Both the position numbers and the translations under genes were made by a program. The notes under the pieces are model-generated. The model searched no databases and had not been told where the DNA came from. It worked only from the letters and a program-made list of their open reading frames with translations. From Tannerellaceae bacterium (GTDB lineage: Bacteria; Bacteroidota; Bacteroidia; Bacteroidales; Tannerellaceae), in NCBI GenBank assembly GCA_021204405.1, contig JAJPZJ010000169.1, positions 1,647-65,646 on the forward strand: a stretch of DNA of 64,000 nucleotides, in the 5' to 3' direction. Below are positions 7,747 through 52,388 of the stretch, piece after piece. The stretch's first letter is position 1; the number at the start of each line of letters is the position of its first letter.

Positions 7747-7849
7747 TGTTCCCCGTGAAAACGGGGACCGCACCGGAACTGACCGGAATCATCTTTTTTA
7801 TATCAAAAACGGACAGCTCTTATGCGGTCCCCGCCTCCGCGGGGAACTG
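7747..7849. repeat. family A REPIN-like inverted-repeat element, copy A1
   Basis: Left arm TGTTCCCCGTGAAAACGGGGACCGCA and right arm TGCGGTCCCCGCCTCCGCGGGGAACT are inverted. Lies 38 nt downstream of the stop of the transporter gene. Confidence 0.8.
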
Positions 7850-7886
7850 ACAATTTGTAATTGAACGGGGGTTTAGCCAGTTCCCT

Positions 7887-8768
7887 TCAATGATTACCCG
7901 TATCATGTATACTCGACAAATAGATCAGGTAGAGGCCTACCAGTATAACAAGCATACCAATAATGGTAAATACCCATTCTTTCTTACTCTTTTTCTCCTT
8001 ATTGATAAATACACCACCCAGTACGGATATAATCACAGCTGCCTGGCTAACCGAGTAAGCTACTGCCAGTCCGATCTTTGCCTGGGATAGCAATAAAGCA
8101 ATATTACCAACTGCCCAGATCACCCCTACCACTCCGTTTTTAAGGGAGGGTTTATTGAATGGTTGTGATTTAAAGAAGATCAGTGAGATCAGGAAAATAC
8201 CGGCTATCTGCCCGAATGACTGCGGCAGGATACTGGTCCATCCATCGATCTTCATGTATTTGAGTATACCCACATAGAGGGTAAAGCCGATAACAGATAC
8301 CAGGTTGATCAATAAACCTTTTCCCCATTGTAGCTTCTTTCCGTCTTTACTATCTTTATAGGAGGTAAATATAATACCGATGATTATCAGTAACAAGGCA
8401 CTGAAACCAAATATTTTGGAAGAAGAGGTAGCCCATTCACCCAATAAAACACCCACCAGCGAAGTTCCTATAATCTGTCCTCCGTTGGAGATAGGCATCG
8501 ATTTGGCTACTCCCAGGTATTGTATCCCCATGAATTGTCCTACGGAACCTATCGCCCAGAACATACCCGACAATAACCCGATCAGGAAAATATGAGGTGT
8601 TAAATCCGGACGTTTAACCAGAAAGACTACAATAGCAAATACCAAACTACCCAACCCGATACCCATCGATTGTTCTACCGGTTTGCCCCCGAGGAATGTA
8701 GCCACTACAGGGATTAAACCAAACGAGAGGATGGGTATACAGGCTATTAATAAATCTGATATATTCAT
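7887..8768 (-). CDS. GRP-family sugar (glucose/ribose) uptake permease
   Basis: Intact 293-aa, 10-helix ORF with a typical GlcU/RbsU-like sequence. Lies directly downstream of the SDR gene. Confidence 0.8.
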   Translation of the reverse strand: MNISDLLIACIPILSFGLIPVVATFLGGKPVEQSMGIGLGSLVFAIVVFLVKRPDLTPHIFLIGLLSGMFWAIGSVGQFMGIQYLGVAKSMPISNGGQIIGTSLVGVLLGEWATSSSKIFGFSALLLIIIGIIFTSYKDSKDGKKLQWGKGLLINLVSVIGFTLYVGILKYMKIDGWTSILPQSFGQIAGIFLISLIFFKSQPFNKPSLKNGVVGVIWAVGNIALLLSQAKIGLAVAYSVSQAAVIISVLGGVFINKEKKSKKEWVFTIIGMLVILVGLYLIYLSSIHDTGNH

Positions 8769-8774
8769 AATAGC

Positions 8775-48056: not shown

Positions 48057-51000
48057 TCAGAATTCAACTCTTGCATTGAAGCCAATATTGCGTTGACTTG
48101 GCTGCATAAAATAGTCGATCCCCTGGAAGTAGGTACCCGTAGAGGCAGTTGCTTCCAGATCAAATGGAGCTTTATTATAGATCATCCAAAGATTACGTCC
48201 TACTACAGATATATTTACTTTCATCGCATGGTCAAACCATTTGGGTGGTAAATTGTATCCCAGGCTTAGTTCCTGTAAACGCACATTGGTCGCTTTGTAA
48301 ATATAATCGGAAAGTAATCCGTTAGCGTGTCCGACAGTAGTATAATAATTCGGCACTGATCATGCTGTTACCGTTTGGTATGCCACCCTGGTCGCGTGCA
48401 ATAGCTGTTGCTTCTGTTACACCAAAACCATCCAGGATAGCTTGTGTGGGTGATACAACAATACCTCCCAGGCGGGCAGATACCATAAAGCCCAGATTAA
48501 ATCTTTTCCAGTTAAAGTCGTTGCGGAAACCCAGGTTCCATTTAGGAAGAACAGATCCTACTCTTTCCAGTTCGTTTTCTAATATCGGACTTCCGTCAGA
48601 TGCAAGTTCGTACGTACCGTTACTATTTGTTCTCAGCCTGTTTTGAGTCCATACATCCCCCATTGTTCCTCCTTTGGTCAGGCGATATTCCATCGAGCCG
48701 ACACCGCCCTGAGAAATTGCATCCAACGTGATAGGTTAGCCGGATGGATCGAAGAATGCATTATCCTCAACTAACTGGACAATCTCATTTTTATTATAAC
48801 TGGCAGTGAAATTGGAACTCCAGATCACATCACCGATTTTGTTTTCACCTCCTATTGCCATTTCAACCCCTGTATTAAGTACATTACCGGTTTGTACATA
48901 CATAGAAGTATAACCGGAAGAGGCTGAGATCGGGATTTGAAGTGTTTGATTTCTGGTATTCGATTTGTACCACGATCCTTCAAAGGTTAAACGGTTCCCC
49001 CAGAAACGGGCACTCAAACCCATTTCCCATGAATTTGTTTTTTCCGGTTTTAATTCATCCAGCGGTTTGTAGGTTATTGGTACTCCATACACCACCCTGC
49101 TTGTTAAATTCGTAGGTTGCAATAGATAAGTTGCGTGGAATAGCCGAACCTACCGAAGAGTAAGAAGCGCGGGCTTTCAGATAAGAGATCTCCGAAGGCA
49201 ATTCTATCATTTCGGAAATAACTCCGGAAAGCCCGATAGAGGGATAGAAGAAAGAGCTGTTATTGGTATTTACCAAAGCGGATGCCCAGTCATTACGTCC
49301 GGTTAACGAAAGATAAACCATGCTTTTCCAGCCCAATTCCACATTAGCAAAGATAGATTGAGTTTGCTCATGCCATTCGTTATGAATTAAGGAAGTCTTG
49401 GAGGCTGAGCAGTCTACATTGGTAAGTGCAAAGAAGTTGGGTATAATCAAAAATCCATCCACACCAATTTCCGAACTACGGATGTCGGATATACTTACCC
49501 CAACGTTAGTCATCAAAGAGAAATCGCCCCAATATTTATTGATATTTACAAGAAAGTCGGTGTAGATCTGTTTGTCAGACTCTTCCGCTCTTTTATAACG
49601 TCCTTCTTCACCTGAGAATAACAGGTCGGTAGAGGCATAATTCTTTTGATTTACTTCCGTATTTGCATTATCCAAACGAACACGTCCCTGCAAATTCAAC
49701 CAATCCAATACATCATATTGGAGCGTTACATTTGCCATATACCTGTCGCGGGTATTTTCAAACCGGTTTCTATTTCGTCCGGTTAACGAAAGATAAACCA
49801 TGCTTTTCCAGCCCAATTCCACATTAGCAAAGATAGATTGAGTTTGCTCATGCCATTCGTTATGAATTAAGGAAGTCTTGGAGGCTGAGCAGTCTACATT
49901 GGTAAGTGCAAAGAAGTTGGGTATAATCAAAAATCCATCCACACCAATTTCCGAACTACGGATGTCGGATATACTTACCCCAACGTTAGTCATCAAAGAG
50001 AAATCGCCCCAATATTTATTGATATTTACAAGAAAGTCGGTGTAGATCTGTTTGTCAGACTCTTCCGCTCTTTTATAACGTCCTTCTTCACCTGAGAATA
50101 ACAGGTCGGTAGAGGCATAATTCTTTTGATTTACTTCCGTATTTGCATTATCCAAACGAACACGTCCCTGCAAATTCAACCAATCCAATACATCATATTG
50201 GAGCGTTACATTTGCCATATACCTGTCGCGGGTATTTTCAAACCGGTTTCTATTTACAATCCAGTACGGGTTTTGCATATCCAGCCCCTGGTTACCCCCA
50301 TTGCCATTGTTGTACGGGATAACCTTCAGCATCACTGTATTTTTCATACGCTTTCATGGTGGCAGGATTTTCACCCCTGGGGTAGGTATAGATAGCTGTC
50401 AGCAGGTTATAGTACTTACCCTGTGCCAACATGTTTTTATCAGACTGTTTGATATAGCTGAAACCAAAATCCAACGTCATTTTATCCTGTAAGAATTTGG
50501 TTGAATTTCTTAACGATACATTATATTTATCGTATCTGTTTTCAGGAATGATACCTTTCGAATTGGTAGATCCTATTGAGAAATAAGTCTGGTTCTTATC
50601 ACTACCTACAGATAAACTGGCTGAGTTGATAGTAGCTACTCCTGTATTAAAGAAATCGGATGGATTGTAATTATACTGGCTTTGTTTATCTCCCCAGCTT
50701 CTGTACTCGCCGGACCGGTTTCCATAGCGGTTCTGGAACTCCGGTAAAACAAACGGTTTAGAAAAGCTGGTCTGGCTGGATACAATTACTTTAGGTTTAC
50801 CGGTTACCCCTTTCTTGGTAGTAATCAAAATGGCACCGTTGGCTGCATTCGAACCATATAAAGCAGCTGCAGCAGGCCCGGTCAGCACCGATATACTTTC
50901 GATATCTTCGGGATTCAGGTCGGCAATACCTTCACTTCGGGTATGGCTGGCATACTCATTCATTTCACCAAGTTCTCCTTTATTGGAGTTAAAAATAGGA

Positions 51001-51695
51001 ATACCATCTATTACATATAACGCATTATTATCTTTGGTAATAGATTTGGTACCACGCATCACTACCCTGGTAGCACCACCCATACCGGCAGAAGATGCAT
51101 TGATCGTTACACCGGCTACTTTACCAGACAGGGAATTCATAAAGTTGGCATCCTTTACACCCAACAATTCATCTCCCTTTACTTCCTGTACATTGTAACT
51201 CAGTGCTTTCTGTGAACGGTTAATACCCAATGCCGTAACCACCACCTCGTCAAGGGCGATCTCATCACTTTGAAGAATAATATTCAGATTGGTACTGCGG
51301 GAAGTGACGGGTATGCTTTGGTTCGCATAGCCAATATAGCTGATGAGCAGTTCGCTTCCTGCCGGGGCCTGTAGTGTAAAGCGGCCGTCCAAATCGGTAA
51401 TAACACCTGTGGTTGTTCCTTTTACCAGCACACTCACCCCTATCAGTGGTTCGCCGGTATTATCTTTTACTATACCAGACACCGTTACCGTTGCCTGGGT
51501 TACTTCTTCACTCTTTGCAGAATGAATCCTTTCATTTACAACTTCTAACTGCCTATTTATTGAATAGGCATCTTCTGCATATGCAGAAGTCATTCCTGCC
51601 AATAATAGAAATGAGGATAATTTACAGATTTTCATCCAATGGCGCTGCAGTTTGAAGTAAAGAGCTTCACGGCCATTACATCGAATGTTTTTCAT
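48057..51695 (-). pseudogene. SusC/RagA family TonB-linked outer membrane protein, heavily disrupted
   Basis: Five colinear ORF fragments. Frameshifts at the C5 run 50295-50299, near 49075-49085 and near 48352-48358. In-frame TAA 48736-48738 (DPSG*PITLDAISQGG). An in-frame 480-bp tandem duplication. C-terminus ...NIGFNARVEF*. Confidence 0.85.
49296..50255. repeat. perfect 480-bp tandem duplication (x2) inside susC
   Basis: 49296-49775 and 49776-50255 are identical base for base in my line-by-line comparison. They duplicate 160 codons (RNRFENTRDRYMANVTLQYD...SLTGRN). Confidence 0.95.
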
Positions 51696-52284
51696 AGAGT
51701 TACGTTATTAAATGATTAAGCTAACTTGAAATTGTTTTAATAAAATAGAACGGTTCATGCCAAATATTTATACATTCCTTTCTCTCTGTTCGTTTTATTT
51801 CATAGGGTAAGAATTTTAATTAATACTGCGTGTATATGACAGGAGACGGTACTCCTATATATCACTGTTTATTTAGGCCTAACAATCCTGCCTTATATGA
51901 CTAATAACCTGCATTTACATTCACTACACAGTTCAAAGATAAATAAATTTCATTTCTTTCACATTTTTAGACATAATAATTATAGGTAGGATGTATTTTT
52001 CTTCTTATTACTTCTACCGTTCAGACTATCTCTCTTATACTAATTTTCATAAAATCTCAGTCACCAGTCACAGTGGAGCGTTAATAGATTAATATTAAAT
52101 GAGTTAATTTATAAAAATAGCGTGACTGAGGCTGTGACTGAGAATCTGTGAAAAATACTATGGAGGGAGAAAAGTAGATATATTTACGGAGACATTTTGG
52201 TTGGAGGTTGAAGGGGGATCTCCTGACCAGTGGTGATCGGAAGATTTATTAAAAATATAAATGTCTATTAAAATAAACCATTAC

Positions 52285-52388
52285 TAGTTCCCCGCGCAGG
52301 CGGGAATCGCATGTAAGCCGGCAGTTTCAACTCTTTAGTAGTACGAAAACGATCCTCCTTCTGCGGTCCCTGCCTGCGCGGGGAACAG
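52285..52388. repeat. family A REPIN-like element, copy A5
   Basis: CTAGTTCCCCGCGCAGGCGGGAATCGCATG ... TGCGGTCCCTGCCTGCGCGGGGAACAG. Lies 60 nt downstream of the HAD gene stop. Confidence 0.85.

What the first reader, a model, noticed from the sequence alone, without database searches (positions are those of the whole stretch)
7747..52388. Family A: dispersed ~100-bp REPIN-like doublets with arms resembling type I-E CRISPR repeats, always just past a stop codon
There are five copies: 7747-7849, 11967-12065, 18158-18527 (interrupted), 23860-23964 and 52285-52388. Each has two inverted arms, (C)TGTTCCCCGCGCAGGCGGGGA(T/C)CGCA and its complement, around a ~45-nt imperfectly palindromic core. Each arm also contains its own CCCCGC/GCGGGG hairpin. 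As far as I recall the E. coli type I-E CRISPR repeat (GTGTTCCCCGCGCCAGCGGGGATAAACCG), the arm is nearly identical to it over about 23 nt. All five copies sit 6-60 nt downstream of a stop codon: the permease, the DUF1080-PHP gene, the HU-like gene, ppx/MaoC and HAD. That placement suggests a REP/BIME-like role in termination or mRNA stability, and/or mobilisation by a RAYT-type Y1 transposase. A3/A4 share internal sequence and A2/A5 form another subgroup.
Basis: partly seen in the sequence, partly recalled or inferred. Interest (0 to 1): 0.6.

Follow-up and report, generated by a model that had tools for sequence, protein, structure and literature searches.

The report
REP-like palindromic doublets at gene ends
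Family A is a real dispersed repeat of about 170 copies in this Tannerellaceae genome: a 100-nt doublet of two inverted GC-rich hairpins that sits mainly at gene 3' ends, behaves like the REP/REPIN repeats of proteobacteria, and has neither a matching transposase nor any link to CRISPR.

Summary
An nhmmer profile finds 168 loci in the 3.45-Mb genome (0.46% of the DNA). Exact arms occur only in this genus and one sister genus of Tannerellaceae.

- **Conservation:** the two 25-nt arms are far better conserved than the roughly 50-nt core (0.85-0.88 against 0.50 per-site identity). The variable loop base co-varies between the two arms.
- **Duplication:** there is no target-site duplication.
- **Position:** copies are 3.3-fold enriched between convergent genes and 3.5-fold depleted between divergent ones. 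Only 60 of 138 lie within 60 nt of a stop codon, so "always just past a stop codon" is too strong.
- **Insertion polymorphism:** three orthologous sites occupied in the sister genus are empty here.
- **RAYT idea fails:** every Y1 transposase gene in six genomes is flanked by family B hairpins, never by A.
- **CRISPR:** the likeness is real (20 of 22 bases), but there are no type I-E cas genes and no arrays. Neisseria dRS3 (CGTC-type REP) carries essentially the same hairpin.

**Verdict:** a new variant of the REP/REPIN kind whose mobilising enzyme is unknown. Family A arms are also the preferred landing site of family B MITEs.

The parts
7747..7849 (.). Copy A1. Left arm 7748-7772 (GTTCCCCGTGAAAACGGGGACCGCA, with a compensated C:G to T:A change in its own hairpin). 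Right arm 7823-7847. It ends 37 nt past the stop of the minus-strand sugar-transport gene 7887-8768.
11967..12064 (.). Copy A2. Left arm 11969-11993 and right arm 12038-12062, both canonical. It lies between convergent ORFs: 11572-11928 (+), stop 38 nt away, and the GNAT gene 12156-12512 (-), 91 nt away.
18159..18526 (.). Copy A3, interrupted. Left arm 18161-18185, core, then right arm split into 18238-18257 and 18511-18526 by a family B element. It starts 19 nt past the stop of the HU-like ORF 17948-18139.
18258..18510 (.). Family B MITE (ends CAGGGCTGTTAAATTC / TTAACAGTCCTA) inserted in the hairpin loop of the A3 right arm. The arm's centre is duplicated (CGCCTACGCGG / CGCCTGCGCGG, 9-11 bp depending on how the element ends are set).
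23860..23964 (.). Copy A4. Left arm 23862-23886 (decayed: GTTCTCCGCATAAGCGGGGATCGCA). Right arm 23938-23962. It starts 5 nt past the stop of the Ppx/GppA ORF 23216-23854.
52285..52388 (.). Copy A5. Left arm 52287-52311 and right arm 52362-52386. It ends 59 nt past the stop of the HAD-hydrolase fragment 52448-52750 (-).
12120..12154 (.). Half of a family C terminal repeat (TAAATCTTCCGGCCAGG...), 55 nt right of A2. Elsewhere in the genome, family A copies sit nested inside complete family C shells.
52214..52252 (.). Half of a family C terminal repeat (...GGTGATCGGAAGATTTATTAA), 33 nt left of A5.

Best explanation
Family A is a lineage-restricted REP/REPIN-type element: a head-to-head doublet of one 22-25-nt GC-rich stem-loop (GTTCCCCGC-GNAG-GCGGGGA, inner tag YCGCA) around a variable core of about 50 nt. 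It is non-coding, non-autonomous DNA that has been copied to about 170 intergenic sites. Shown: it is a dispersed family. Orthologous sites differ in occupancy between genera. It makes no target-site duplication. The arms are kept while the core drifts. The two arms co-vary, so the unit that is copied or selected is the whole fold-back (a 25-26-bp stem, about -72 kcal/mol as a single strand). Copies survive mainly where transcription units end. Inferred: propagation goes through a single-stranded hairpin intermediate handled by a structure-specific enzyme, as for REPINs. That enzyme is not one of the Y1 genes seen here, because those carry family B-type hairpins on their flanks. Also inferred: the 3'-end bias is mostly purifying selection against promoter and coding insertions. 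A possible secondary benefit is that the very stable hairpin, flanked by a degenerate A-tract and T-tract, blocks read-through or 3' exonucleases in both directions. The likeness to type I-E CRISPR repeats is convergence on, or very old common descent of, a common GC hairpin. It is not a functional link.
For: There are 168 distinct loci, each hit on both strands, and 208 arms at up to 2 mismatches against 0 for the reversed control pattern. No direct repeat is found at offsets 0-6 for k = 2-9. Mean pairwise per-site identity is 0.85 and 0.88 for the arms, 0.50 for the core and 0.37 for the flanks. Arms are nearly invariant across two genera. The loop base N of GNAG is matched between the two arms in 72% of copies against 37% expected. 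The first flanking base pair co-varies as T..A / A..T. The single-strand fold is -72 to -73 kcal/mol with z about -10.6 on both strands. Convergent intergenic regions hold 41-48% of copies against 14-16% of intergenic length (p 1e-12 to 1e-21). Divergent regions hold 6% against 19-22%. Both results are robust to three gene-call thresholds. In tandem regions copies lie nearer the upstream stop (mean relative position 0.39, p = 8e-4). Three of three orthologous intergenic sites occupied in the sister genus are empty here (40-118 nt gaps). A few perfect solo hairpins GTTCCCCGC-N4-GCGGGGAAC exist beside the doublets. The anatomy and the lack of an associated transposase match published CGTC-type REPs (PMC3733652).
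Against: No mobilising enzyme was identified. No two copies are identical (maximum 94%, median nearest neighbour 82%), so the family may no longer be active. The exact ends are uncertain. The palindrome fades into degenerate tails (AAACAAACAGRYTCA / TGARYCTGTTTGTTT), so a short or variable duplication further out cannot be fully excluded. Intergenic sequence between genera is too diverged to read insertion junctions base by base. Gene calls came from a home-made caller on a pseudogene-rich MAG. The assembly is 95% complete in 184 contigs, so a cognate gene could be missing.
Confidence: 0.6

Rival explanations
1. A true REPIN-RAYT system. Family A is moved by a Y1 (RAYT-type) transposase that either acts in trans (one of the Y1 genes seen) or lies in the unassembled 5% of the genome.
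For: Doublet anatomy, arm-to-arm covariation, absence of a target duplication, rare singlets and extragenic 3'-end bias are all REPIN traits. The genome has one intact and one broken Y1 gene.
Against: Both Y1 genes here, and the Y1 loci fetched from four sister-genus genomes, carry family B-type hairpins on their flanks. A profile scan of those loci (about 1.5 kb each side where the contig allows) gave only one weak 31-nt hit at E = 0.11. G043 has family A arms but no Y1 gene at 98% completeness. There is no GTAG tag. The Y1 motifs (DHVH, WQ, YISNQQEHH) fit subclass 1.2 of PMC6006769, not a RAYT class.
Confidence: 0.15
2. An ordinary MITE: a deletion derivative of an insertion sequence with 25-28-bp terminal inverted repeats, moved in trans by a DDE transposase.
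For: It has long, well conserved terminal inverted repeats and a variable interior, which is typical of MITEs. The genome is full of other MITE-like families (B and C) with clear terminal repeats.
Against: No target-site duplication was found at any tested offset. No pair of inverted arms 250-5000 bp apart encloses a transposase. The only coding insert is an ArgD-like aminotransferase lying between two separate copies. There is no match in plasmid or phage collections. Each arm is itself a hairpin and also occurs solo, which points to recognition by structure.
Confidence: 0.1
3. Primarily a host device: a bidirectional transcription terminator or mRNA 3'-end stabiliser that spread because it is useful, not because it is selfish.
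For: A quarter of all convergent gene pairs carry one (70 of 282). The left flank is A-rich and the right flank T-rich, symmetric about a very stable hairpin. There is no orientation bias relative to neighbouring genes (24 against 20). Arms are conserved in situ while cores drift.
Against: A canonical terminator scan calls none of A1-A4. The T-run starts 7-9 nt beyond the perfect stem. Most stem mutations are uncompensated (109 of 175). Some copies are decayed or interrupted (A3, A4). Orthologous sites in the two genera manage without it. The family is absent from 115 other Tannerellaceae.
Confidence: 0.1
4. CRISPR-derived: the arms are orphan or degenerate type I-E repeats, or are bound or processed by a Cas6e-like protein.
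For: The arm is identical to the enterobacterial I-E repeat at 20 of 22 positions. There is a sub-threshold Rfam hit to CRISPR-DR28 (30.4 bits against a gathering score of 35).
Against: No Cas6e (PF08798) or Cas7e (PF09344) was found in any of six A-bearing genomes. The sensitivity of that search is uncertain, because among the control genomes only Thermus rang. The cas genes present are type II-C and type III. No arrays are assembled. The arms are inverted, not direct, and there are no spacers. The 3' handle of the repeat (ATAAACCG) is absent. The equally similar Neisseria dRS3 shows this hairpin is common among REPs.
Confidence: 0.02

Closest known systems
CGTC-tagged REP superfamily (Di Nocera et al. 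2013, PMC3733652), especially CGTC-1 = Neisseria dRS3 (ATTCCCgcCTgcgcGGGAAT, PMC3046118)
   Same: The hairpin is almost the same. Family A solo form: GTTCCCCGCCTGCGCGGGGAAC. dRS3: ATTCCCGCCTGCGCGGGAAT. That is one extra C:G pair and a different closing pair. Shared features are an 8-9-bp stem with T/A next to its base, a 4-nt loop, mostly head-to-head dimers with spacers of conserved length, placement between convergent and unidirectional genes near 3' ends, no associated transposase gene, and presence in Bacteroidetes. In both cases the hairpin loop is also a landing site for other mobile DNA (the MDA/Nf phage in dRS3, family B here).
   Different: The unpaired tag next to the stem is TGCG/NTGC, not CGTC/TGTC/CCTC. 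The usual 3-nt CCA tail is not seen. In Neisseria the units form large mosaic clusters, whereas here they are isolated doublets. The family is confined to two genera.
REPINs with RAYTs (Bertels and Rainey 2011, PMC3116915)
   Same: Two inverted REP hairpins plus a spacer fold into one long hairpin. Changes in one arm are matched in the other. Singlets are rare. There is no target duplication. There are hundreds of extragenic copies and inheritance is restricted to a lineage.
   Different: No RAYT is flanked by family A, and there is no GTAG tag. The Y1 genes present are associated with a different hairpin family (B). No near-identical copies were found, so there is no sign of current replication.
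BIMEs / REP of E. coli
   Same: Inverted REP pairs at gene 3' ends, with proposed roles in termination, mRNA stability and binding of gyrase or IHF. They are targets for specific IS insertion (IS1397-like behaviour; this point rests on my own knowledge).
   Different: The sequence family is unrelated. E. coli REPs have a cognate TnpA-REP.
Type I-E CRISPR repeat (GTGTTCCCCGCGCCAGCGGGGATAAACCG)
   Same: 20 of 22 bases, covering the GTT, the CCCCGC/GCGGGG stem and the following AT.
   Different: The copies are inverted doublets rather than direct repeats with spacers. There are no I-E cas genes and no 3' handle. They are dispersed at gene ends.

Membership tests
REPIN-RAYT system | Two REP hairpins in inverted orientation that can fold into one long hairpin | tested here: met
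   25-26-bp arm-to-arm stem at -72 kcal/mol on both strands. Arm-to-arm covariation of the loop base.
REPIN-RAYT system | A cognate, usually single-copy RAYT gene flanked by the same REPs | tested here: not met
   Y1 loci in five genomes are flanked by family B-type hairpins. The nhmmer scan of the sister-genus loci gave only one 31-nt hit at E = 0.11. G043 has arms but no Y1 gene.
REPIN-RAYT system | Conserved GTAG-type tetranucleotide next to the hairpin | tested here: not met
   The inner tag is YCGCA/TGCGR and the outer bases are YYW.
REPIN-RAYT system | No target-site duplication | tested here: met
   No direct repeat at offsets 0-6, k = 2-9, in 95 full copies.
CGTC-tagged REP superfamily | Terminal CGTC (or TGTC/CCTC) tag not involved in pairing | tested here: not met
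   The tag reads (G/T/A)TGCG next to the stem. The definition is from PMC3733652.
CGTC-tagged REP superfamily | 8-9-bp stem with complementary A/T near its base, and a 4-5-nt loop | tested here: met
   The solo form GTTCCCCGC-GNAG-GCGGGGAAC has a 9-bp stem with TT/AA at positions 2-3 and a 4-nt loop. In doublet arms position 2 is a T:Y mismatch.
CGTC-tagged REP superfamily | Mostly head-to-head dimers; no transposase association; located between convergent and unidirectional ORFs | tested here: met
   About 150 doublets against at most 11 perfect solo hairpins, some of which are doublet arms. Context. No transposase association.
MITE derived from a DDE insertion sequence | Terminal inverted repeats plus a target-site duplication of fixed length | tested here: not met
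   Terminal repeats are present, but no duplication was found.
MITE derived from a DDE insertion sequence | A related autonomous element with the same ends | tested here: not met
   No coding element lies between inverted arms within 5 kb in this genome. Arm positions listed for the sister-genus and metagenome loci showed no such pair either. No plasmid or phage match.
CRISPR type I-E | Direct repeats regularly spaced by unique spacers | tested here: not met
   The arms are inverted. No arrays were found in the assembly.
CRISPR type I-E | cas6e / cas7e and other type I-E genes in the genome | tested here: not met
   PF08798 and PF09344 are absent from six genomes. The control search rang only in Thermus, so sensitivity is imperfect. 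The cas1 genes belong to type II-C and type III loci.
Intrinsic (Rho-independent) terminator | GC-rich hairpin directly followed by a T-run | tested here: not met
   The consensus scan flags none of A1-A4. T enrichment peaks at +9 to +11. An extended, imperfect stem could bring it closer in some copies.
Intrinsic (Rho-independent) terminator | Transcript 3' ends map at the element | not testable with these tools

The most novel reading that the evidence does not exclude
Family A and the CGTC-type REPs (such as Neisseria dRS3) are copied by a still unknown, non-Y1 machinery. Their shared hairpin, which is also the core of type I-E CRISPR repeats, reflects common descent, so that I-E repeats and this REP class stem from one ancestral hairpin module. 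In this genome the same hairpin additionally serves as the specific docking site for a second layer of parasites, the family B MITEs.
Probability: 0.07. Interest if true: 0.8.

Novelty: new variant of a known kind. Interest (0 to 1): 0.42.

Why it matters
REP and REPIN biology rests almost entirely on proteobacteria with RAYTs. Here a Bacteroidota lineage carries a large doublet family that has the REPIN hallmarks but no cognate Y1 gene, while the Y1 genes present go with another hairpin family. Together with the published orphan CGTC REPs, this strengthens the case that a second, unidentified route for copying palindromic repeats exists. It also gives a tractable system: two genera and a clear consensus. 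The hierarchy C[A[B]], with family B landing in family A's hairpin loops, is a clean example of structure-targeted insertion. It could help identify the transposase that reads such hairpins. Practically, these elements break assemblies and can mimic CRISPR repeats in annotation pipelines.

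Tried and rejected
- **Target-site duplication:** a search at seven offsets and six lengths found none.
- **Paralogous empty sites in this genome:** joining flanks and BLASTing found only other nested repeats.
- **Empty family C shells without family A:** family C proved too heterogeneous. 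One shell holds a solo hairpin instead.
- **Strain-level presence/absence among 37 metagenome loci and 43 sister-genus loci:** all alignable loci carried the element.
- **E. coli genome BLAST to verify the repeat likeness:** no hit, because 36 nt is too short for a 28-Gb database. It was replaced by a literature string search.
- **Orientation against neighbouring gene direction:** no bias.
- **Rfam at gathering threshold:** no family covers family A.
- **Integron attC reading:** considered and rejected on anatomy alone. The ends read GTT...AAC rather than ...AAC / GTT..., and copies are 4-28 kb apart rather than after every cassette. IntI was not searched.
- **Assembly artefact:** rejected. 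Copies are diverged, sit in unique contexts, and recur in independent MAGs and JGI contigs.

Full report
**Observation.** The arm core GTTCCCCGCGCAGGCGGGGA occurs 7 times in the window at up to 3 mismatches and never in 100 shuffles. The remaining three arms are decayed or split. A3 is cut at 18258-18510 by a family B element. The neighbouring ORFs are a sugar-transport permease, a truncated HU-like ORF, Ppx/GppA and a HAD fragment. The ORF before A2 has no Pfam hit.

**Genome-wide census.** The window is contig C124 of a 3.45-Mb, 184-contig, 95%-complete MAG with 42% G+C.
- A profile built from 72 clean copies finds 168 distinct loci with nhmmer. That is one per 20.5 kb and 16 kb in all.
- All but one are hit on both strands, as expected for a palindrome.
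- A pattern scan gives 208 arms at up to 2 mismatches, against 0 for the reversed control.

**Distribution.**
- Among 185,579 species representatives, the exact 25-nt arm occurs only in four other Tannerellaceae MAGs.
- Among 121 Tannerellaceae it occurs only in the window's genus and one sister genus, at 1-62 arms per genome.
- In 400 further Bacteroidota only a few genomes hold a handful of a related hairpin, ATCCCCGCGAAGGCGGGGA.
- JGI metagenome contigs with the arm are the sister-genus organisms.
- Nothing similar is on plasmids or phages.

**Anatomy.** The consensus is (Y)(Y)(W)-GTTCCCCGC-GNAG-GCGGGGA-YCGCA, then about 50 nt of core, then TGCGR-TCCCCGC-CTN'C-GCGGGGAAC-(W)(R)(R).
- As a single strand it folds into a 25-26-bp perfect stem. 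The energy is -72 to -73 kcal/mol on either strand, with z about -10.6.
- Arms have a mean pairwise per-site identity of 0.85 and 0.88, the core 0.50 and the flanks 0.37.
- Arms are nearly invariant even between the two genera, whose genes are about 75-80% identical.
- The loop base N (C, A or T) is the same in both arms in 72% of copies, against 37% expected. The first flanking pair switches T..A / A..T together. The doublet therefore evolves as one fold-back unit.
- Positions 26-27 are systematically non-complementary, so the element has a polarity. Even so, it shows no orientation preference relative to neighbouring genes (24 against 20).
- Of 175 mutated stem positions, 109 break the local pair, 24 are compensated locally and 24 are mirrored in the other arm. 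This is a modest signal for both folds on top of plain decay.
- A few perfect solo hairpins GTTCCCCGC-N4-GCGGGGAAC exist: at most 11 perfect palindromes, several of which are arms of doublets.
- One subfamily of 120-127 nt carries a 20-nt insert, CCGTAGGTCGGCCTTAGCCA, inside an arm.
- Beyond the arms the palindrome fades into AAACAAACAGRYTCA / TGARYCTGTTTGTTT. This accounts for the A-rich left flank and T-rich right flank.

**Mobility.**
- No target duplication is detectable.
- No two copies are identical. Pairwise identity has a median of 66% and a maximum of 94%, and the median nearest neighbour is 82%. Several core subfamilies exist: A2/A5 in one, A1/A4 (and A3 by eye) in another.
- Three orthologous intergenic sites that hold an element in the sister genus are 40-118 nt long and empty in this genome. 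None is shared. Insertion or loss therefore went on after the genera split.
- Copies also travel nested inside family C shells, whose ends read TCAGTCATGGCCGGAAGATTT.
- In turn, family A arms are the favoured target of family B-type elements. Of 93 AGGGCTGTTAAATTCTC ends, 53 abut half of a family A arm, with the arm's hairpin centre duplicated by 9-11 bp. Many of the other ends abut similar CCCCG...CG hairpin halves that lack the family A signature.

**Position.** I called genes with a home-made dicodon caller (3,466 calls, 82% coding).
- Copies fall 70 convergent, 68 tandem, 9 divergent, 3 overlapping genes and 18 at contig edges.
- The baseline is 282, 1,666 and 324 intergenic regions.
- By intergenic length, convergent regions are enriched 3.3-fold (p = 1e-21) and divergent regions depleted 3.5-fold (p = 5e-7).
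- The result holds at two stricter gene thresholds.
- In tandem regions copies sit nearer the upstream stop (mean relative position 0.39, p = 8e-4).
- Of 138 copies that face a 3' end, 60 are within 60 nt of it and 82 within 100 nt. The bias is real, but 'always' is not.

**Who moves it.**
- The genome has two Y1 (PF01797) genes: one intact (C10:16678-17109) and one with a stop codon (C134).
- The first is bracketed by family B-type hairpins, the second by a third kind of repeat. Neither is bracketed by family A.
- The motifs DHVH, WQ and YISNQQEHH fit subclass 1.2 of Quentin et al., not a RAYT class.
- Eighteen Y1 matches in four sister-genus genomes are likewise free of family A. The only hit was a 31-nt match at E = 0.11. 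The two loci read in detail carry family B-type hairpins.
- G043, at 98% completeness, has family A arms and no Y1 gene.
- No pair of inverted arms up to 5 kb apart encloses a transposase. Most such pairs are family A copies split by family B. One holds an IS3 remnant, and one is two copies around an argD-like gene.

**CRISPR.**
- The arm shares 20 of 22 positions with the enterobacterial I-E repeat, whose strings I confirmed in the literature.
- Rfam gives only a sub-threshold hit to another repeat family, CRISPR-DR28 (30.4 bits against 35).
- The genome's cas genes are a type II-C cas9-cas1-cas2 locus and a type III locus with a reverse-transcriptase-like ORF next to cas1.
- Cas6e and Cas7e profiles find nothing in six A-bearing genomes. 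Among the control genomes these searches rang only in Thermus, so their sensitivity is uncertain.
- No arrays are assembled.
- Neisseria dRS3, ATTCCCgcCTgcgcGGGAAT, is the same hairpin minus one C:G pair. It belongs to the CGTC-tagged REP superfamily, which has 8-9-bp stems, 4-5-nt loops and head-to-head dimers. That superfamily sits at gene 3' ends, has no transposase association, and is also found in Bacteroidetes.

**Terminator idea.** The consensus scan calls none of A1-A4. The T-run peaks 9-11 nt beyond the perfect stem. A role as a read-through block or exonuclease barrier remains plausible from the fold energy and the symmetric A/T flanks, but it is inference only.

**Verdict.** Family A works like a REPIN (a REP doublet). 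It is closest in sequence and habits to the orphan CGTC-type REPs, but it fails the tag criterion of both superfamilies and has no cognate RAYT. I file it as a new variant of a known kind, with an unknown mobiliser, a probably old or extinct burst, and no CRISPR function.

Noticed in passing
window 18284-18328, 18439-18484, 60882-60926, 61035-61079: Hairpin modules of family B reach the gathering score of Rfam RF01687 (Acido-Lenti-1 RNA). The same kinds of hairpin bracket the Y1 transposase-like genes examined in this genome and the sister genus, so this 'sRNA' motif may really be the REP of a Y1 (subclass 1.2-like) gene.
   Followed up: partly
window 18258-18510; genome-wide: Elements ending in AGGGCTGTTAAATTCTC insert into the hairpin loop of family A arms. 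53 of 93 ends abut an A-arm half, and many of the rest abut similar CCCCG...CG hairpin halves. The insertion duplicates 9-11 bp, so this is a structure-targeting MITE.
   Followed up: partly
window 60848-61094; half sites at 12120-12154 and 52214-52252: A third family ('C') has ends TCAGTCATGGCCGGAAGATTT / AAATCTTCCGGCCATGACTGA and interchangeable cargo: family B-type hairpins, a whole family A copy, or a solo family A hairpin.
   Followed up: partly
window 31330-31401 (-): Full-length match to Rfam RF04319, the Bacteroidetes FopS sRNA (75.6 bits).
   Followed up: no
window 49292-49591 and 49772-50071: Two 300-nt stretches are 100% identical and 480 nt apart, inside the long minus-strand ORF 49055-50347. 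This is either a recent internal duplication or an assembly artefact.
   Followed up: no
genome contigs C100 and C103 (not in the window): A type II-C cas9-cas1-cas2 remnant lies on a 3.6-kb contig. A type III locus with a reverse-transcriptase-like ORF beside a cas1 that carries a TAG stop ends at a contig edge. No CRISPR array is assembled anywhere.
   Followed up: partly
window 17948-18139: The HU-like ORF is only 63 aa and matches just positions 1-38 of the 90-position Pfam profile. It looks truncated or frameshifted right before A3. Several other neighbours of family A copies are gene fragments too (Ppx/GppA, HAD).
   Followed up: no
genome C57:13891-15661, C7:16381-16482 and other 120-127-nt copies: A 20-nt insert, CCGTAGGTCGGCCTTAGCCA, sits between GGGGA and TCGCA of one arm in a subfamily of family A. 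The same 20-mer also turns up inside family B-type hairpins (C95, C96).
   Followed up: no
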